A stretch of DNA of 51,252 bases from NCBI GenBank assembly GCA_036278915.1, contig DASUKB010000003.1, forward strand, positions 1-51,252, in the 5' to 3' direction. This DNA is from Patescibacteria group bacterium. Lineage in GTDB: Bacteria; Patescibacteriota; Doudnabacteria; UBA920; O2-02-FULL-48-8. The translations under genes were made by a program, and so were the position numbers. Position 1 is the first letter of the stretch. Each line of letters starts with the position of its first letter. The notes under the pieces were generated by a model. It was given only the letters and a program-made list of their open reading frames with translations, had not been told where the DNA came from and searched no databases. Shown here one piece after another: positions 19,105 through 25,905 of the stretch.

Positions 19105-19132
19105 AAACGGAACAAGTCCGTTTCTTTCTTTT
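19105..19132 (+). terminator. rho-independent terminator of the pilus operon
   Basis: AAACGGA(19105-19111)/TCCGTTT(19117-19123) followed by CTTTCTTTT. Confidence 0.65.
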
Positions 19133-19138
19133 GGCTCG
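19123..19138 (+). repeat. island-flanking direct repeat (left copy, putative att core)
   Basis: TCTTTCTTTTGGCTCG compared with TCTTTCTTGGCTCG at 25824-25837, in the same orientation. Confidence 0.5.
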
Positions 19139-19279
19139 CATATACCGATGACTTGAGAACTCTGGGAGAATACGCAATATCTAGAATCTTGCAACTGCAA
19201 GGATTGCTTAAGGCTGTTTAGCTCCGCCTTCTTTTTCTTTTTCCAATATAGTCTGTTCTGCTTCTATTTCTGCCGCCGA

Positions 19280-19786
19280 TTAAGGTTCCAGCTTGAAAAT
19301 TAGATCGCCCAAGGGAGTACTGATCGGATTAACGTCTAGCTTTTCTAGTTTGTTCTCCTTTGTAGACAGAATGACGTTTAGCATAGGATTCAAGGTCTTG
19401 GAAATACCAATATTAAGACTACTTTTTAAATACTTGTTGTCTCCTTTTCCTATTATTAAATTTAACCGATGCGACCCTAGATCATATCCCTTAACCCCAG
19501 AAATTCGTTTAAGGGTCTCGTGCATCACATAATGCCCATGCTTTTCAGGGTTTGTGTATCCTAATTTTTTTGCAATCCCGACTCTGCTATTTGACCAAGT
19601 GGAATTATAGTTCGGATTTGAACTCGTAAAGATTATTTCTTTTCCTTCTAGATGCAAGCTCCAATGTACACCCTTCCAATGAATCCACCGAATTATAACC
19701 TGATCACCTCTTTGGAACACCTCAATAACAGGAAATTGCTCTTCGTTATATTGAATTGAAATTACTGAATTTTTCATATTATTCAT
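19280..19786 (-). CDS. hypothetical protein (168 aa), translationally coupled partner of the 540-aa gene
   Basis: The ATG overlaps the stop of the upstream gene (GATGAATAATATG). I recognise no domain. Confidence 0.6.
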   Translation of the reverse strand: MNNMKNSVISIQYNEEQFPVIEVFQRGDQVIIRWIHWKGVHWSLHLEGKEIIFTSSNPNYNSTWSNSRVGIAKKLGYTNPEKHGHYVMHETLKRISGVKGYDLGSHRLNLIIGKGDNKYLKSSLNIGISKTLNPMLNVILSTKENKLEKLDVNPISTPLGDLIFKLEP

Positions 19787-21401
19787 CGTCTACGGTTGGA
19801 AGCCCTAAGTCTTCTGTATAAAATTCGTGAAACTTGCGATCTAGGAAGTTCCCAATGGCCGGTGGCCCTGAGTTATTTTCCTTATAAACCTTTGAAATCT
19901 CATTGCTGACCCCGGTTGCGGGATTAGCCTTAACCCTCTTTATGATTTCATCTACTTCAATATAATCCTTTACAAAATAATACCCTTCAAGTTCTTCTAT
20001 TGAAATCAAATAATATTCCATATCCTGTATTCCTGGATTATTCTCTTCAAGTCCAGTTAAAGCTTTTTTTATATCTTCATCATATATACTAGTGGACAAA
20101 AGAGGCACATCATAAAAAATGCCTATACAAATTATTTTTTTATCCTTGAGTGATTTTAATTCTTCGTAGTTAGGTATATCCCTAACCCGATCATACATTT
20201 GCTTAATAGTTTTAATTATCTTGCTAAAAATTTCTTTCCGTATTAACGCTGGATCACCTGTTTGTAGGGTTGGTAATGGAAACTGGTATCCCTTAGCCTC
20301 AATTAAAATAACAGAATCATCTCGGTCAACTATCCAATCAAAAAACTCTTTCTTGTCGTGGCTACTACCATACTTAAAACCTGGTTTTACATCGGACTCT
20401 CCGTAAATATCGGACAAAACAAGACCCACATATCGTTCAAACAGTAAACCAAAATATTCACGAAATTTAGCTTTTAAATCATTTTCAAATATCCAATATA
20501 GGCCGCGAAACGAAGCTTTTACATAAGCACTCAAACTTGGAATAATATAATCATTTGCCCCAACCTGAATTACTGGTTTTTCCCAAAGTGGATTATACCG
20601 ACTTTTTGTATATTCTGACGGCAAATTATTACTATTGTATTTGGAATCTAAATCCCGAAATAATTCTGGCGTTACTGATAATTTATTGAGGATGGATCTC
20701 ATTTTCTCGTCTTTCAGAACCTGACTAAGACCGCCGGTTATTGTTGACTCTGTAAATCTACCCAGGTTAAATCTTGGGCTAGACATTCCTGCCGCAAAGA
20801 TTGCGAAGCTCAATTTTATATATTCATCTATGCTAATACCGTATTTGTCTTTTAAAACCTTATCTAAGTCTAACACTAAATCACTAGGTAATTCAGCGGG
20901 AATCTTTTCAAAGATTAACCATTGTCTTATGAATACATCCTTAATATCCATTTGACTAGTAAATTGCTGAAAATACATTGGAACCAAAAAAGAAGAAAGA
21001 TTTCTCACCCTCACCCCTTGCACAAGTCCATTATGATATATGTTAAATAATGCCAAAATATTATCACGATCTTTAATACTTAAGCTTTTGTAATTGTTTG
21101 CACCTGAAATTATAAATGAATTTGCAATATATTCTAATGCAAACTCAGTGATAAATATTTTAGTCAATTTGTGAATAATAAACCCGCTCCTTTCCTTTTT
21201 CAAAGCTTCGTTCTCAAGGAAATTTTTATCGTTAAGCTTCATTGAAATTTCTCCTAATACCACTAACGCTTCGTCTAATTTATAACCCTTAAGAGCATTA
21301 CAAAACTGCTCCTGGGTAACCTTTAGTTCACCGGAGTTACATAATGCCGAGAGTCTTGCATCGGCTTCTAAAATATAATTCCCCAATTGATCTCTAAACA
21401 T
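19779..21401 (-). CDS. hypothetical 540-aa protein with C-terminal PD-(D/E)XK-like nuclease motif
   Basis: Long clean ORF. FERYVGLVL ... EFFDWIVDRDDSVILIEAKGYQF fits E / D / ExK spacing of the restriction-endonuclease fold. I do not recognise the N-terminal ~330 aa. Confidence 0.6.
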   Translation of the reverse strand: MFRDQLGNYILEADARLSALCNSGELKVTQEQFCNALKGYKLDEALVVLGEISMKLNDKNFLENEALKKERSGFIIHKLTKIFITEFALEYIANSFIISGANNYKSLSIKDRDNILALFNIYHNGLVQGVRVRNLSSFLVPMYFQQFTSQMDIKDVFIRQWLIFEKIPAELPSDLVLDLDKVLKDKYGISIDEYIKLSFAIFAAGMSSPRFNLGRFTESTITGGLSQVLKDEKMRSILNKLSVTPELFRDLDSKYNSNNLPSEYTKSRYNPLWEKPVIQVGANDYIIPSLSAYVKASFRGLYWIFENDLKAKFREYFGLLFERYVGLVLSDIYGESDVKPGFKYGSSHDKKEFFDWIVDRDDSVILIEAKGYQFPLPTLQTGDPALIRKEIFSKIIKTIKQMYDRVRDIPNYEELKSLKDKKIICIGIFYDVPLLSTSIYDEDIKKALTGLEENNPGIQDMEYYLISIEELEGYYFVKDYIEVDEIIKRVKANPATGVSNEISKVYKENNSGPPAIGNFLDRKFHEFYTEDLGLPTVDDE

Positions 21402-21466
21402 AAGCTATAAATTATTTATACTATTTACAAAATACAAAAGCCAGGCCGCCTAACCTAGCTTTGTTC

Positions 21467-21624
21467 TATTCCCACCTATTCCCACCATCTTTCCGCTCTT
21501 TTCCGCCTTTTTCCGCCATCTATAGTTCCCAGTGATTTCCAGTTATTTAATGGCATAAAATCCACCATTTTCCACCATTTCAAATTCCGTGATTTTCAGT
21601 GAAATTTTCCACGTTTTTCCACGT
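21467..21624. repeat. array of 10-bp-period tandem word doublets with TTCC (minus: GGAA) core
   Basis: TATTCCCACC x2 (21467-21486); (T/C)TTTCCGC(C/T) x3 (21489-21517); TTCCCAGTGA/TTTCCAGTTA (21526-21545); TCCACCATTT x2 (21561-21580); TTCCGTGATT/TTCAGTGAAA (21585-21604); TTTTCCACGT x2 (21605-21624). Confidence 0.85.
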
Positions 21625-21633
21625 ATTTTTCAG

Positions 21634-22746
21634 TTATACTTTTGCTTTACTTTCCAAATAAAAGCTAAATTGCTTTAAGTCTGTCCCGTCAATTAACCTA
21701 ACATTGGCTTTATGGGCCAATTCTTTTGCTGATTTCGTAAACATTGAGTTTGTTATGACCCAACCCTCATCTGCACCATAAAACTGAACCGCACTGGCGA
21801 CTTCTTGAACGGCTTTATTCCCAACGGTTCCGTCATACCTTTTGGCCTGGATGATTATAGTCTTACCATTTCGTTTAGCAATCAAATCTGCTCCCTGGTC
21901 TCCTGTAGCCGGTGTTCCAGCAATATCCGTAAAGCCATTTTCCTTCAGGAGCCGTGCCAGGTAAGTTTCAAACTCCGTGCCCGACATAGGTGAAAAATCA
22001 ACTTGCGTAATGGGTCTACTTTTTTTAGTCTTGTATTCTCGCTTAAATCTTTGCTCTAAGTAGGCAGATAGCTTTTTTAACTCCTCGGGCATTGACCAAT
22101 CATACTTTGACCATCTTTTAAATTGATCTTCATCGTACCGCTCTTTTTGAGCGATTTTTCGTATCACTGTCTCAATTTCTTTTGGTAATACATCCCAGTG
22201 TTCATCTCCGTAATCATCTATGACTGAAACCTTACGATAAGTGACTTCCAAAAATTGAGATATTAGATCAGAATATTTTTCTTTAAATAAATCAAATTTT
22301 GTTTCTATTTTCGCTTGAGCTTTTTCTCGTTGCTGCTCTTCAAGTTTCTGGTGATAATCTCTGAATCGTTTTAGTAAATTATCTTTAAGTTGTAAATATT
22401 CTGAATTAGCTCTTCGTTGCCAGTTGGATAACCATTCATAATTAGGTGACATATTTATATCACCTTCGGCTTCAGCAATGTCTCTTATACAATCCCGAAC
22501 TGAATTTTCAATGTAATAAGAACGATGGTAGCCGTGATTAAGTTTTTTTAAATGAGATTGGATGATATCCTCATTTCGTTCTTCCAGTGTTTTGGACTTA
22601 TCAATTAACCTGTCACTCCATTTTTCTTTTGCCTTTAAAGCTTTCTCTTTGTTGTTTTTTGACGCATTAAGAGAACTGGATGCAGATGATATTGCCCAAA
22701 AAATAGCCAAAACTATAAGAAATAAGATCCCTATTACTTCTTCCAT
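21634..22746 (-). CDS. membrane-anchored Mrr-type restriction endonuclease domain protein
   Basis: N-terminal TM (GILFLIVLAIFWAI), a long charged coiled-coil region, and C-terminal SGTEFETYLARLL...GDQGADLIA...IIIQAKRY....VGNKAVQEV (Mrr_cat D...(Q/E)xK core). Confidence 0.8.
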   Translation of the reverse strand: MEEVIGILFLIVLAIFWAISSASSSLNASKNNKEKALKAKEKWSDRLIDKSKTLEERNEDIIQSHLKKLNHGYHRSYYIENSVRDCIRDIAEAEGDINMSPNYEWLSNWQRRANSEYLQLKDNLLKRFRDYHQKLEEQQREKAQAKIETKFDLFKEKYSDLISQFLEVTYRKVSVIDDYGDEHWDVLPKEIETVIRKIAQKERYDEDQFKRWSKYDWSMPEELKKLSAYLEQRFKREYKTKKSRPITQVDFSPMSGTEFETYLARLLKENGFTDIAGTPATGDQGADLIAKRNGKTIIIQAKRYDGTVGNKAVQEVASAVQFYGADEGWVITNSMFTKSAKELAHKANVRLIDGTDLKQFSFYLESKAKV

Positions 22747-22778
22747 ATAGTTAAATTATAACCCAATTAGCCTTAGAA

Positions 22779-22994
22779 TTACAGCTTGGGGTTATCCCTT
22801 AACTTATCCTTCTTTGAAACTTCAATTTTCGGCAAGAAACTAACCCGAACTTCATTATCAGCAAACGGTTTGTCTATAAATTTAGTGGGAGTTTTTACGC
22901 CTCGTTTCTGTAATTCCTTGTTGAACTTGGCCCAAAAGTCCCTACCTGTCAATTTATTTTTAGGTGGGATTGAATCGTCGGGAATATTGGTCAT
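22779..22994 (-). CDS. hypothetical small basic protein (71 aa)
   Basis: ORF 32 nt upstream of the Mrr-like gene on the same strand. No domain recognised. Confidence 0.45.
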   Translation of the reverse strand: MTNIPDDSIPPKNKLTGRDFWAKFNKELQKRGVKTPTKFIDKPFADNEVRVSFLPKIEVSKKDKLRDNPKL

Positions 22995-23033
22995 AACAGA
23001 ATTCCTTTATGATTTAATTATTGCCCAGTCTGA

Positions 23034-23186
23034 TTAGGTTAGTTCCTGTTTGAGGTTTTCTTCAGCCTTCTCGTTGTCGCTGCGACTTGTATTATACGCA
23101 ATCTCGGCCAGATGTCTTTCAAGATGACGAGCGATATACGCAATCTCCAGGGCAATAGCGATTAAAATCCAATCGGTTACAGTCAT
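23034..23186 (-). CDS. hypothetical 50-aa single-TM protein (short version of ORF 23034-23309)
   Basis: GGAAAGGAAA lies 4 nt before ATG 23186. MTVTDWILIAIALEIAYIARHL.. The upstream 41 codons of the track ORF coincide with four GC-rich hairpins. Confidence 0.4.
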   Translation of the reverse strand: MTVTDWILIAIALEIAYIARHLERHLAEIAYNTSRSDNEKAEENLKQELT

Positions 23187-23232
23187 AAAATTTCCTTTCC
23201 GCAAGTATGACACAAAAGGCCACCGCTTGCTT

Positions 23233-23344
23233 GGCTCTTGCGAGCCTGCCACCCTTTCGGATGGCAACCATTGGAATAGTAGCAAGACGATGACCGTCTC
23301 TATTTCCAATGGTTTTGTTAGCCGTGCTTCGGGAAGATCCGAAG
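23233..23344 (-). ncRNA. candidate structured RNA / leader: four adjacent stem-loops
   Basis: On the minus strand: CTTCGG/CCGAAG (23327-23344); CCATTGGAATAG/CTATTTCCAATGG with inner GACG/CGTC (23268-23312); GCCAUCC-GAAA-GGGUGGC (23248-23265); GGCUC-GCAA-GAGCC (23233-23246). Two loops are GNRA on the minus strand only. Confidence 0.4.
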
Positions 23345-23410
23345 TTTAGGCCGCTAATTATGGAGTAATTTTACCACAAAATCCGCCGAGATGGTAGACG
23401 GTAGGCGGGA

Positions 23411-23438
23411 TTGACAAACTTCCCGGATAGGGTATACT
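23411..23438 (+). promoter_or_regulatory. sigma70-like promoter inside the island
   Basis: TTGACA (23411-23416), 16-nt spacer, TATACT (23433-23438). No ORF follows for about 530 nt. Confidence 0.45.
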
Positions 23439-23973
23439 GCTTCCAGATTCGTTTCAGAAGAAATATTTTTAGCTGGGTGAAATTCGCCAGCAACGGCTAA
23501 GTCCGCAGGTTCATATATATTTTAGAGATTTATAAGTTCGTCTAAATTTCTACAAGTATCTATAGATCTGCGGTTTTTTGTTTGCCAATTTTTTTATACA
23601 GCTCATTTTAATTAAAATTGTTACTCTTGCAAAAGCCTGTTTATTTTTGGCTGGACTTAGCAAGAGTTGCCAGCCAGAAATAAGTAGGTTTTTCTTTTGT
23701 CTGAGTGCGTAATAAATTCGTTCAGACAAGCGAAAAACGCTTGCGTCGCCCCAACTCCCTACTGGAGAGCCTGCGGACGCTAAATGGCAGGTAGCAAGTG
23801 TGCCAGATAACGGATTCCTCACAAGACCGAATATCACACGCCTATGAGCCCAAACGAGATTTTGGGCGGCAGTAAATTAACCACTGTAACTAAAACCTAA
23901 CTAAATAACATTCGGGATTGAAGGAAACGGCTCGTGGGTGGTGGGGTAAGGCAATGGCGATAGTAATTACAAT

Positions 23974-24129
23974 ATGAAAAATCTTCACTACAAAAACAGG
24001 AACTTCAGGGCAGACGATTCAGTTTGGGAACAGTTCAAGATTGAACGACGCAAATCAGCTCTTTCTTGGAACTTGTTTATCAAGCTTCTAATCCGTTTGG
24101 TAAAAAAATATGGAACCCATCAGGACTAA
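23974..24129 (+). CDS. hypothetical 51-aa protein (possible ribbon-helix-helix-like)
   Basis: MKNLHYKNRNFRADDSVWEQFKIERRKSALSWNLFIKLLIRLVKKYGTHQD*. Its beta-strand plus two-helix pattern and position upstream of the recombinase suggest the fold. It is below the ORF-track cutoff. Confidence 0.4.
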   Translation: MKNLHYKNRNFRADDSVWEQFKIERRKSALSWNLFIKLLIRLVKKYGTHQD

Positions 24130-24262
24130 CGAATCACTCTCTCCGCCGCCATTGACCGACTTTGAGATTGCCAGGCTCTCAAGGTTGTTTGATTTGCTCC
24201 TCAAACTTGAGAAGCGACAGAAGGAGAGTAAGGATGACCTGCGAACTGACAACCCAAATTAA
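24110..24262 (+). CDS. hypothetical 50-aa protein
   Basis: MEPIRTNESLSPPPLTDFEIARLSRLFDLLLKLEKRQKESKDDLRTDNPN*. It overlaps the previous small ORF by 20 nt and ends 30 nt before the recombinase. Confidence 0.3.
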   Translation: MEPIRTNESLSPPPLTDFEIARLSRLFDLLLKLEKRQKESKDDLRTDNPN

Positions 24263-24291
24263 GTAATCTATAATTAAACCAATCTAATTTT

Positions 24292-25905
<1,614 letters not shown>

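What the first reader, a model, noticed from the sequence alone, without database searches (positions are those of the whole stretch)
21467..21624. 160-bp array of different 10-bp words, each tandemly doubled, all sharing a TTCC/GGAA core in helical phase
The 232-nt spacer between the Mrr-like gene and the 540-aa gene contains six consecutive blocks. Each block is a distinct 10-mer repeated head-to-tail: TATTCCCACC x2, TTTTCCGCC x3, TTCCCAGTGA/TTTCCAGTTA, TCCACCATTT x2, TTCCGTGATT/TTCAGTGAAA, TTTTCCACGT x2. TTCC (or one-off variants) starts at 21469, 479, 491, 501, 511, 526, 537, 560, 570, 585, 595, 607 and 617, mostly 10-12 bp apart, on one face of the helix and all in one orientation. I do not recognise this word-doublet grammar as any standard feature. 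It is too short for CRISPR and not a simple satellite. Several words (TTTTCCACG, TTTTCCACC) are one mismatch from the DnaA-box consensus TTWTNCACA, and an AT-rich stretch follows at 21405-21465. An origin-like or DnaA-titrating site for the excised element is therefore one hypothesis. The alternatives are a ParR/centromere-like or iteron array, or a cooperative operator controlling the 540/168 module.
Basis: seen in the sequence. Interest (0 to 1): 0.7.

Follow-up and report, generated by a model that had tools for sequence, protein, structure and literature searches.

The report
Array of doubled ten-base words
A 160-base spacer between two defence genes on a small mobile island of an ultra-small (CPR) bacterium is made of six different ten-base words, each repeated head-to-tail. 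They are most likely docking sites for a protein that reads direct repeats one DNA turn apart (MraZ-like), and a similar layout recurs on two other such islands.

Summary
The array is real and far from chance. All three exact 10-bp tandem doublets of the 51-kb window, and 5 of 7 one-mismatch doublets, lie in 21466-21628. All 13 units carry TTCC or a one-base variant on one strand. The 'one face of the helix' claim holds only within blocks.

On the strand of both flanking genes the words read (C/G)GTGGAAAA, ATGGTGGAAA and GGTGGGAAT, plus GCGG/CTGG/ACGG variants. Three doublets are therefore GTGG-N6-GTGG, the box grammar of MraZ operators, and the same words occur in verified mraZ operators of other phyla.

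The array is absent next to 6 homologues of the downstream GapS1-like gene and 4 of the upstream Mrr-like gene. A module ACGTGGAAAA x2 ... ATGGTGGAAA x2 recurs on two unrelated CPR elements that carry a large serine recombinase. One of them (L201) shows the same grammar, five different perfect 10-bp doublets.

No perfect DnaA box is present, and the base before GTGG is never T. No replication or partition gene lies on the island.

Best reading (about 0.4): a regulatory pad of two-unit tandem binding sites for an oligomeric direct-repeat reader. The binder is unproven. The main rival is a functionless, decaying minisatellite. This is a new variant of a known kind, of moderate interest.

The parts
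21605..21628 (-). Block F: minus strand ACGTGGAAAA x2 (+ partial third copy). This is a GTGG-N6-GTGG pair and forms part of the module shared with L201 and L077.
   Evidence: TRF period 10, 2.4 copies; GTGGNNNNNNGTGG hit; alignment A1
21585..21604 (-). Block E: minus strand CACTGAAAAT / CACGGAATTT, a degenerate doublet (7/10). It lies where L201 and L077 have no sequence, so it is an insertion relative to them.
21560..21580 (-). Block D: minus strand ATGGTGGAAA ATGGTGGATT. This is a GTGG-N6-GTGG pair, and the same word forms verified mraZ operators in L083, L137 and L152.
   Evidence: TRF
21526..21548 (-). Block C: minus strand ACTGGAAATC ACTGGGAACT (CTGG in place of GTGG). As a 20-mer it is related to block E.
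   Evidence: TRF period 10, 2.0 copies, 90%
21488..21519 (-). Block B: three units, minus strand ATGGCGGAAAA AGGCGGAAAAG AGCGGAAAG (GCGG in place of GTGG).
   Evidence: TRF period 10, 2.8 copies, 88%
21466..21486 (-). Block A: minus strand ATGGTGGGAAT AGGTGGGAAT, a GTGGG-N5-GTGGG pair.
   Evidence: TRF period 10, 2.1 copies, 100%
21437..21462 (-). G+C-rich hairpin followed by a T-run. It could be an intrinsic terminator of the Mrr-like gene or an attenuator in a leader, and it lies between the array and the next start codon.
   Evidence: terminator scan, 11 pairs, tail TGTATTTTGT; RNA fold
21402..21436 (-). AT-rich 35 nt with a TATAAA(T) -10-like box about 13 nt before the ATG and no Shine-Dalgarno sequence. 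It is a possible near-leaderless promoter of the GapS1-like gene (inferred).
   Evidence: read from sequence; not listed by the promoter scan
21633..21638 (-). TATAAC -10-like hexamer overlapping the Mrr-like stop codon, 12 nt upstream of the first box. It is a possible promoter that would place the boxes in a leader, as at mra promoters (inferred; the -35 is weak).
   Evidence: read from sequence; layout of verified mraZ operators
21634..22746 (-). Upstream gene: a 370-aa membrane-anchored Mrr-type nuclease.
   Evidence: Pfam Mrr_cat E 1.5e-32; PADLOC
19779..21401 (-). Downstream gene: a 540-aa distant GapS1-family protein.
   Evidence: NCBIfam NF047931 E 6.9e-26, below cut-off

Best explanation
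The spacer is a DNA-level pad of tandem protein-binding sites. Each block is a minimal two-unit (in block B, three-unit) site. Its units lie exactly one helical turn apart, head-to-tail. This arrangement is read by proteins that bind as head-to-tail oligomers in successive major grooves.

Read on the strand of the flanking genes, the units are [C/G/A][T/C]GG(G)AA followed by A/T. Three blocks are GTGG-N6-GTGG, the box grammar of the MraZ operator. The other three would be weaker extension sites filled cooperatively.

The most likely reader is the host's MraZ or another oligomeric beta-sheet (swapped-hairpin type) regulator encoded outside this contig. Bound protein would repress or insulate transcription running from the Mrr-like gene, or from a promoter at its end, into the GapS1-like defence gene.

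The perfect doubling is best explained by 10-bp unit duplication and contraction under selection for at least two units per site.

Shown: the anatomy, its non-randomness, its recurrence on two other serine-recombinase elements of CPR bacteria, and the identity of words with verified mraZ operators.

Inferred: protein binding, the identity of the binder, the promoter positions and the regulatory effect.
For: - Exact 10-bp period, one orientation and a shared core in all 13 units.
- All three GTGGNNNNNNGTGG matches of the window lie in the array.
- Literature:
  - The B. subtilis operator is GTGG[A/T]G x3 (bioRxiv 10.1101/2022.02.09.479790).
  - AbrB binds bipartite TGGNA with 4-5 bp AT-rich spacers, also as direct repeats, and long sites hold many TGGNA (PMC3738160).
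  - Streptomyces PhoP needs at least two direct-repeat units, and complex operators hold up to six, some degenerate (PMC2275107).
- A scan of 185,579 species genomes for GTGGAWAA x3 at 10-bp period put 23 of 122 matches directly upstream of an MraZ-like ORF.
  - These include CPR genomes (L057, L063, L085, L107).
  - They also include operators spelled with this array's own words: GGTGGAAAAT x3 in L083, L137 and L152, and GTGGAAAAACGTGGAAAA in L106.
- In those operators GTGG lies on the sense strand upstream of the gene, as it does here.
- The module ACGTGGAAAA(N)CGTGG ... ATGG(TGG)AAAATGGTGGA recurs in L201 and L077.
  - Both are elements with a large serine recombinase.
  - The L201 recombinase is only 25% identical to the window's, and blastn found no wider DNA homology between either element and the island.
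- L201 has five consecutive, different, near-perfect 10-bp doublets just upstream of a TTTACT-17-TATAAT promoter.
- The L201 array is unchanged in 7 assemblies.
Against: - The invariant part of the 13 units is GGAA, not the GTG that MraZ contacts. Only 6 of 13 units have GTGG.
- Verified CPR mraZ operators read TGTGGATAA, whereas these arrays read (C/G)GTGGAAAA.
- Three of the five L201 doublets (AAAAGTTGAT, AAAACCTGAT, AGGTTAATAT) are not GTGG boxes at all. One reader therefore cannot explain every doublet.
- No MraZ, AbrB, MazE, SpoVG or TerS-like gene lies on the 51-kb contig. The small island ORFs have no recognisable DNA-binding domain.
- The array is absent from all ten homologous gene neighbourhoods examined.
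- A terminator-like hairpin separates the array from the gene, and no good promoter was found by the scan.
- There are no binding or expression data. Only one DNA run holds the sequence.
Confidence: 0.4

Rival explanations
1. A functionless relic. Either an old 10-bp minisatellite of (T)TTTCCNNNN units is decaying by point mutation and small indels, with occasional single-unit duplications that make neighbours identical, or there have been repeated slippage events in a T/C-rich spacer.
For: - Neighbouring units are more alike (7.75/10) than distant ones (5.5/10), as in evolving tandem arrays.
- The array is absent from all homologous gene neighbourhoods.
- Homogeneous (GTGGAAAANN)n satellites exist in many genomes.
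- No binder has been identified.
Against: - Only period 10 is seen, not a spread of lengths.
- All units have one orientation, with an invariant 4-base core.
- Irregular inter-block spacers argue against simple decay of one array.
- Two of the words recur in the same order on two unrelated serine-recombinase elements.
- L201 shows five perfect doublets of unrelated words, again all 10 bp.
Confidence: 0.2
2. A multi-reader pad. Each perfect doublet is the minimal operator of a different tandem-binding regulator (host MraZ plus other small host or rival-element regulators). The spacer would then integrate several inputs at one point of the mobile element.
For: - Doublets are identical over all 10 positions but differ between blocks, both here and in L201, where three words lack any GGAA or GTGG core.
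- Earlier unchecked notes of this scan report many paralogous mini AbrB-fold regulators with paralogue-specific phased boxes in Patescibacteria, including this genome.
Against: - It needs five or six different proteins for 160 bp.
- In this window all words share GGAA, which fits one reader better.
- The mini-AbrB boxes reported earlier are 12-bp phased, not 10.
- None of those genes lies on this contig.
Confidence: 0.12
3. A DnaA-box cluster, acting as a DnaA-titrating site, a DnaA-dependent promoter control, or a host-DnaA-driven origin for the excised circle.
For: - TTTTCCACG x2 and TTTTCCACC are one mismatch from TTWTNCACA.
- About 100 of the 122 phased GTGGAWAA triplets found in genomes are TGTGGATAA-type DnaA-box arrays, some with inverted TTATCCACA beside them. 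DnaA boxes therefore do occur as 10-bp-phased direct repeats.
- A tandem box pair, then a G+C cluster, then an AT-rich stretch lies at the end of the array.
Against: - The array has no perfect box, and the window as a whole shows only chance-level counts.
- The mismatch is always at the stringent ninth position.
- In 14 GTGG boxes of the three related arrays the preceding base is C or G, never T.
- 10 of 13 units are two or more mismatches away.
- The island has no replication genes.
Confidence: 0.08
4. An RNA-level element. The array would be transcribed as the long 3' UTR of the Mrr-like gene or as a leader of the GapS1-like gene, ending at the hairpin and U-run. Its 11 GGA motifs would bind an RNA-binding protein (CsrA-like), or the mini-ORF M(V)ENGG would act as a leader peptide.
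For: - A terminator-like hairpin lies directly after the array on the gene strand.
- GGA density is comparable to Csr/Rsm sponge RNAs (my own knowledge).
- Block D encodes MVENGG... in all three loci.
Against: - There is no Rfam match.
- The fold is no better than shuffles (z -1.3).
- The motifs are not in hairpin loops and lack the A at -2 of CsrA sites.
- An exact 10-nt period has meaning on B-DNA, not on RNA.
- Direct repeats cannot pair.
- The same word occurs in DNA operators upstream of mraZ.
Confidence: 0.07
5. Iterons, a centromere or a packaging site of the excised element, that is, binding sites for a Rep, ParR or small-terminase-type protein.
For: - Short direct repeats are typical of such sites.
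- In L201 the array lies directly after a gene with weak similarity to the DNA-binding N-terminus of small terminase subunits (Pfam Terminase_2, E 1e-4).
Against: - This island has no rep, par or terminase gene.
- The repeats are different words, not copies of one iteron.
- BLAST finds no similar stretch in 72,556 plasmids or 50,697 phage records.
- The shared module was not found in IMG/VR.
Confidence: 0.05

Closest known systems
MraZ-binding repeats (MBRs) of the mra/dcw promoter (E. coli, B. subtilis, Mycoplasma; PMC12957436, bioRxiv 10.1101/2022.02.09.479790)
   Same: - Direct repeats at a 10-bp period with a GTGG core and an A-rich spacer.
- GTGG lies on the sense strand upstream of a gene.
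- Blocks D and F use words found in verified mraZ operators.
- Oligomeric binding tolerates 2+2 boxes with longer spacers.
   Different: - The array is not at mraZ.
- Boxes come in pairs of different words rather than three or four contiguous like boxes.
- Half of the units have GCGG, CTGG or ACGG.
- The invariant core here is GGAA.
- There are 13 units over 160 bp with irregular spacers.
- It lies on a mobile island between defence genes.
AbrB bipartite TGGNA sites (B. subtilis; PMC3738160)
   Same: - TGGNA-N5(AT-rich)-TGGNA in direct orientation.
- Long binding regions hold multiple TGGNA.
- 8 of 13 units are TGGNA and 4 more are CGGAA.
   Different: - AbrB accepts all four orientations, whereas this array is strictly head-to-tail.
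- AbrB itself is a Firmicutes protein.
- No AbrB-fold gene lies on this contig.
Direct-repeat operators of OmpR/PhoB-type response regulators, e.g. Streptomyces PhoP DRus (PMC2275107)
   Same: - Two head-to-tail units form the minimal site.
- Complex operators hold up to six units, some degenerate, filled cooperatively from conserved core units.
   Different: - The unit there is 11 nt with one consensus per regulator.
- No response regulator or matching consensus is known here.
DnaA-box clusters (oriC, datA-type titration sites)
   Same: - The TTTTCCAC core.
- Phased direct repeats of TGTGGATAA exist in many genomes.
   Different: - There is no perfect box.
- Position 9 is always wrong.
- There are no inverted anchor boxes.
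- The island has no replication genes.
HsdC controller sites of Mollicutes restriction-modification operons, (GTGTTAN5)2 (PMC5282649)
   Same: - A two-unit direct repeat at a period of about 11 bp controls a defence operon.
- MraZ can bind the HsdC site in vitro.
   Different: - The controller gene sits in the operon it controls, and there is a single doublet on the promoter.
- Here there is no controller gene and there are six blocks.

Membership tests
MraZ operator (MraZ-binding repeats) | GTG(G/T) boxes as direct repeats separated by six nucleotides | tested here: inconclusive
   Three blocks (A, D, F) are GTGG-N6-GTGG, and these are all three such matches in the window. The other 7 units have GCGG, CTGG, ACGG or CTGA.
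MraZ operator (MraZ-binding repeats) | Three or four contiguous boxes in one 10-bp register | tested here: not met
   GTGG boxes occur only in pairs. Blocks are 11-23 bp apart and not in one register. L077 does have five units in register, four GTGG and one ATGG.
MraZ operator (MraZ-binding repeats) | Location on the promoter or leader of mraZ / the dcw cluster | tested here: not met
   The array lies between an Mrr-like and a GapS1-like gene, and no MraZ-like ORF is on the contig.
MraZ operator (MraZ-binding repeats) | Bound by MraZ | not testable with these tools
   This needs EMSA or footprinting.
DnaA-box cluster / replication origin | Several 9-mers matching TTWTNCACA | tested here: not met
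   There are 0 matches in the array. The window has 7 matches against 6.05 expected, none nearer than 21170.
DnaA-box cluster / replication origin | Adjacent unwinding element and replication genes or autonomous replication | tested here: inconclusive
   An AT-rich 35 nt follows a G+C-rich hairpin. No dnaA, rep or helicase gene is on the island. Replication cannot be tested here.
Plasmid/phage iterons | Multiple near-identical copies of one 17-22-bp word next to a rep gene | tested here: not met
   The units are 10 bp and form six different words. There is no rep gene, and there is no BLAST match in plasmids or phages.
ParR/ParG-type centromere | Array of like repeats beside a parMR/parFG-type operon | tested here: not met
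   No partition genes are among the island ORFs, and the words differ between blocks.
AbrB-type bipartite site | Two TGGNA motifs 4-5 bp apart with an AT-rich spacer | tested here: met
   Blocks F, C and A are TGGNA-N5-TGGNA in direct orientation. In block D the second unit is TGGAT. Block B is CGGAA-N5-CGGAA. This is a 4-base motif, so the match is weak evidence.
AbrB-type bipartite site | An AbrB/SpoVT-fold protein available to bind | tested here: inconclusive
   None is on this contig. Earlier unchecked notes report such genes elsewhere in this genome.
CRISPR array | Identical repeats of 24-48 bp separated by unique spacers | tested here: not met
   The units are 10 bp and adjoin one another without spacers.
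Known RNA family | Match to an Rfam covariance model | tested here: not met
   Only chance-level hits, E of 1.5 or more and far below the gathering scores.

The most novel reading that the evidence does not exclude
Arrays of different, perfectly doubled decamers may be a shared control feature of the serine-recombinase mobile elements of CPR/Patescibacteria. Each doublet would be the minimal operator of a different tandem-binding regulator. The conserved pair ACGTGGAAAA x2 / ATGGTGGAAA x2 would be read by a host factor such as the division regulator MraZ. The element could then tie expression of its recombinase or defence cargo to the host's division state and to rival elements, or could sequester MraZ.
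Probability: 0.12. Interest if true: 0.75.

Novelty: new variant of a known kind. Interest (0 to 1): 0.5.

Why it matters
Gene regulation in CPR/Patescibacteria is almost unstudied, and these organisms have very few regulators. If a mobile defence island carries a pad of MraZ-type boxes, the conserved cell-division regulator would have targets outside the dcw cluster. Mobile elements could then sense or perturb host division.

The grammar itself is a compact, testable example of how head-to-tail operators arise by one-turn duplications: different words, each exactly doubled at one helical turn, recurring on unrelated elements. If the array turns out to be a decaying minisatellite, it remains a useful caution about reading function into short repeats.

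Tried and rejected
  - Six GapS1-like homologue loci (L001, L002-5, L006, L261-263) have no array.
  - Four Mrr-like homologue loci (L007-L010) have none either. In two of them the Mrr-like gene is followed at once by the recombinase.
- **Sequencing runs.** Only the source soil metagenome holds the stretch, and only as contigs, so there is no read-level copy-number variation and no RNA data.
- **Viral scans with the exact words of blocks F and D.**
  - Block F gave a chance-level count.
  - The block D hits are mostly coding: the 17-mer encodes VENGG, often in small-terminase-like proteins.
  - The three-locus module was not found in IMG/VR.
- **BLAST** of the spacer against plasmids and phages found no match.
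- **Intrinsic curvature.** TT/AA periodicity power of the array is not among the top windows of the contig.
- **RNA readings.** No Rfam match, and the fold z-score is -1.3.
- **Island-encoded binders.**
  - The 71-aa ORF is an orphan with no relatives among 1.84 billion representatives.
  - The 51-aa ORF (23974-24129) looked ribbon-helix-helix-like by eye. Pfam, PHROGs and PDB sequence searches gave nothing, and a single-sequence AlphaFold model is one long helix of low confidence. It was dropped as evidence.
- **Other readings.**
  - Target-site-duplication footprints were rejected because bacterial transposon excision does not normally leave intact duplications.
  - The att core of the island (TCTT(T)GGCTCG) is unrelated to the words.
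- **Broad pattern scans.** These mostly returned eukaryotic or giant-virus satellites and putative origin-type DnaA-box pairs.

Full report
**Setting**

The window is a whole 51,252-bp contig of a soil-metagenome Patescibacterium. An earlier unchecked note calls it Doudnabacteria-type.
- A low-G+C island of about 6.7 kb (about 19123-25905) sits at tRNA-Asn. It carries a large serine recombinase (24292-25872, +).
- Its cargo is on the minus strand: small ORFs, a 370-aa membrane-anchored Mrr-type nuclease (21634-22746), a 232-nt spacer, a 540-aa distant GapS1-family protein (19779-21401) and a 168-aa ORF.
- The finding is the spacer.

**The observation**

- Tandem Repeats Finder splits the stretch into five separate period-10 arrays of 2.0-2.8 copies. 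The sixth block is a 7/10 doublet.
- In the whole contig only three exact 10-bp doublets exist, and all lie here. Five of the seven doublets with at most one mismatch also lie here. Periods 9, 11 and 12 show nothing here.
TTCC or a one-base variant is invariant, all on the + strand.
- TTCC-N5-8-TTCC-N5-8-TTCC occurs three times, all here, against 0.22 expected.
- Six independent doubled words all holding TTCC has a chance of about 1e-6 at local composition.
- A second, independent assembly has the same letters.
- The claim of one helical face fails. Spacing is exactly 10 within blocks but 12, 15, 11, 23, 15 and 12 between them. The phase coherence of the 13 anchors is only 0.28-0.40, and blocks C and D lie about half a turn from the others.

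**Reading it on the gene strand**

Both flanking genes are on the minus strand. There the array reads: ACGTGGAAAA x2 | CACTGAAAAT CACGGAATTT | ATGGTGGAAA ATGGTGGATT | ACTGGAAATC ACTGGGAACT | ATGGCGGAAAA AGGCGGAAAAG AGCGGAAAG | ATGGTGGGAAT AGGTGGGAAT. It is followed by a G+C-rich hairpin with a T-run (21462-21437), then 35 AT-rich nt and the ATG.
- The invariant core is GGAA followed by A/T. The three bases before it vary.
- Neighbouring units are 7.75/10 identical against 5.5/10 for distant ones.
- Blocks A, B and D resemble each other (ATGGYGGRAA), as do C and E as 20-mers. The array therefore has a history of unit and doublet duplication.

**What reads direct repeats one turn apart**

[quoted passage not shown] 2+2 boxes with a longer spacer still bind at high concentration (PMC12957436). 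See also the B. subtilis GTGG[A/T]G x3 and the Mollicutes (AAAGTGKN3)3.
- AbrB binds bipartite TGGNA with 4-5-bp AT-rich spacers, also as direct repeats, and its long sites hold many TGGNA (PMC3738160).
- Streptomyces PhoP needs at least two direct-repeat units. Its complex operators hold up to six, some degenerate, filled cooperatively (PMC2275107).
- A restriction-modification controller of Mollicutes uses a single (GTGTTAN5)2 doublet (PMC5282649).
- Blocks A, D and F are GTGG-N6-GTGG. They are the only three such matches in the window.

**Test against real operators**

I scanned one genome per species (185,579 species) for GTGGAWAA-NN-GTGGAWAA-NN-GTGGA.
  - Among them are Saccharibacteria (L057, L107) and Staskawiczbacteria (L063, L085).
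  - Some operators are spelled with this array's own words: GGTGGAAAAT x3 (L083, L137, L152) and GTGGAAAAACGTGGAAAA (L106).
- In these operators the promoter lies just upstream and the boxes lie in the leader. Here a TATAAC hexamer overlaps the Mrr stop codon 12 nt before the first box. That is an inference with a weak -35, and the promoter scan did not list it.
- Most other matches are TGTGGATAA arrays, that is, DnaA-box-type repeats, some with inverted TTATCCACA beside them. The DnaA and MraZ grammars therefore overlap.

**DnaA**

- No unit matches TTWTNCACA.
- Three units are one mismatch away, always at position 9.
- In the 14 GTGG boxes of the three related arrays the preceding base is C or G, never T. 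That is seven independent words in AT-rich DNA, roughly 6e-4 by composition (my own estimate).
- This argues against DnaA. It also shows a wider constrained core, (C/G)GTGG(A/G)A, which differs from the TGTGGATAA of CPR mraZ operators.

**Conservation**

- The array is not an attribute of either flanking gene.
  - Six GapS1-like homologues (47-63% identical) have ordinary upstream regions.
  - Four Mrr-like homologues (56-61%) are followed at once by a serine recombinase or by other genes.
- A metagenome scan for two separated GTGGAAAA double boxes mostly returned satellites and putative origin-type DnaA-box pairs. It also returned L201.
- At L201 3109-3251, Tandem Repeats Finder reports five consecutive period-10 doublets: AAAAGTTGAT x2, AAAACCTGAT x2, AGGTTAATAT x2, AAAACGTGG(A) x2.3 and AAAATGGTGG x2.5.
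  - They lie about 40 nt upstream of a TTTACT-17-TATAAT promoter that heads a structured leader and a large serine recombinase gene.
  - The last two words are blocks F and D of the window.
- L077, a Saccharibacteria genome, has CGTGGAAAAA x3 followed by CCATGGAAAATGGTGGAATT in one 10-bp register. It also lies on an element with a large serine recombinase.
- The three arrays align over ACGTGGAAAA(N)CGTGG ... ATGG(TGG)AAAATGGTGGA. Block E of the window is an insertion between the two conserved parts (alignment A1).
- The L201 recombinase is only 25% identical to the window's. blastn found no other DNA homology between the island and L201 or L077. The shared words are therefore unlikely to reflect recent common descent of the region.
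- The L201 spacer is identical in 7 assemblies. In an eighth it differs at 4 positions, none in the array. These copies are near-clonal, so this says little.
- Among 1.86 Mb of fetched loci, only the window, L201 and L084 (a repeat-rich Acidobacteria spacer) showed several distinct 10-bp doublets outside obvious satellites.

**Weighing**

For a DNA-level, protein-binding pad:
- the exact one-turn period
- one orientation
- an invariant core
- two-unit minimal sites
- identity of words with verified operators
- recurrence on unrelated mobile elements

- GGAA rather than GTG is invariant, and half of the units lack GTG.
- Three L201 doublets are not GTGG boxes.
- No swapped-hairpin gene, and no other shared DNA-binding gene apart from the recombinase, lies on the contig.
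- The small ORFs of the island are uninformative.

I therefore commit to 'tandem-site regulatory pad read by an oligomeric direct-repeat binder, MraZ the best named candidate' at about 0.4. Its effect would be repression or insulation of transcription entering the GapS1-like gene.

The rivals, in order:
- a functionless decaying minisatellite (0.2)
- a pad for several different regulators (0.12)
- a DnaA cluster (0.08)
- an RNA element (0.07)
- iterons, a centromere or a pac site (0.05)

**Novelty**

Head-to-tail direct-repeat operators are well known. An array of different, perfectly doubled decamers is a variant I could not find described, in the papers read or in the plasmid and phage collections. 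What sets it apart is its position on mobile elements between or before cargo and recombinase genes, with two words conserved across unrelated elements.

**Limits**

- No RNA or read-level data exist.
- Earlier AI notes on MraZ operators in Patescibacteria were used as leads and only partly re-tested.

Noticed in passing
L201 2880-3260 and 2522-2648 (Ga0066639_10020167): Besides the five doublets, the intergenic regions of this serine-recombinase element hold further short phased words: GAAAACATAG x2.5, AACCTAATGA-type triplets, and TAGTTAAY words about 11-12 bp apart upstream of a small-terminase-like HTH gene. Repeat-rich spacers seem to be a general style of the element.
   Followed up: partly
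L017-L042 (IMG/VR contigs): In many of these viral contigs the 17-mer TGGTGGAAAATGGTGGA (block D) lies inside genes of small-terminase-like HTH proteins, where it encodes the motif VENGG. It is also a GTGG-N6-GTGG pair. I treated this as coincidence, but pac sites often lie inside terS genes.
   Followed up: partly
L091, L117, L133, L151, L162 (Firmicutes MAGs): A conserved phased triplet GTGGAAAAGTGTGGAAAAC(A/G)GTGGA lies upstream of large ORFs of 384-426 aa. In L091 and L117, whose sequences I read, the ORF is SbcD/Mre11-like by its N-terminal motif. This may be a non-mraZ target of a GTGG or DnaA-box reader.
   Followed up: no
L084 1500-2100 (Candidatus Acidoferrum MAG): An ORF-poor stretch packed with different short tandem repeats: GGACCACG x4, GGGTGCANNT x5, CACRAGAAGG x3, TAXGTCGAGA x2, GGTGGAAAAA x3-4 and GAAAGTTGACA words. 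The end motif recurs on another contig of the same genome (L088) and in L123, so it may be a repeated element.
   Followed up: no
L166, L189, L190, L192, L198, L206, L217, L228, L231, L235, L237, L241, L244: Two TGTGGAAAA double boxes about 24 nt apart are conserved across many contigs of about 47-51% G+C. They look like paired DnaA boxes of an origin. The gene context was not examined.
   Followed up: no
window 23974-24129 (+): A 51-aa ORF before the recombinase has a pattern (FRADDSVWEQFK...ALSWNLFIKLLI) that looks ribbon-helix-helix-like by eye. Pfam, PHROGs, PDB sequences and a single-sequence AlphaFold model give no support.
   Followed up: yes
L007 3001-5578, L008 163-2759: In the closest relatives the Mrr-like gene is followed within 2-4 nt by a large serine recombinase gene. 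The nuclease seems to travel as a standard partner of such recombinases in CPR islands.
   Followed up: partly
window 21881-21854 (-): A strong sigma-70-like site, TTGCTA-16-TATAAT (10/12), lies inside the 3' part of the Mrr-like gene and points towards the array. A transcript from it would end at the hairpin about 410 nt later.
   Followed up: no
L077 4372-4632 and L201 2193-2522: Both other array-bearing elements encode SpoVG-family small proteins (Pfam E 1.8e-11 and 8.6e-5). The window's island encodes none.
   Followed up: partly
L016 11890-12040 (-), IMG/VR phage contig: The divergent promoter region before a small-terminase gene of a G+C-rich phage holds TTCCACGTTTTTCCACG plus several TTCCGC/TTCCCGC words on one strand. 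They are not 10-bp phased.
   Followed up: partly
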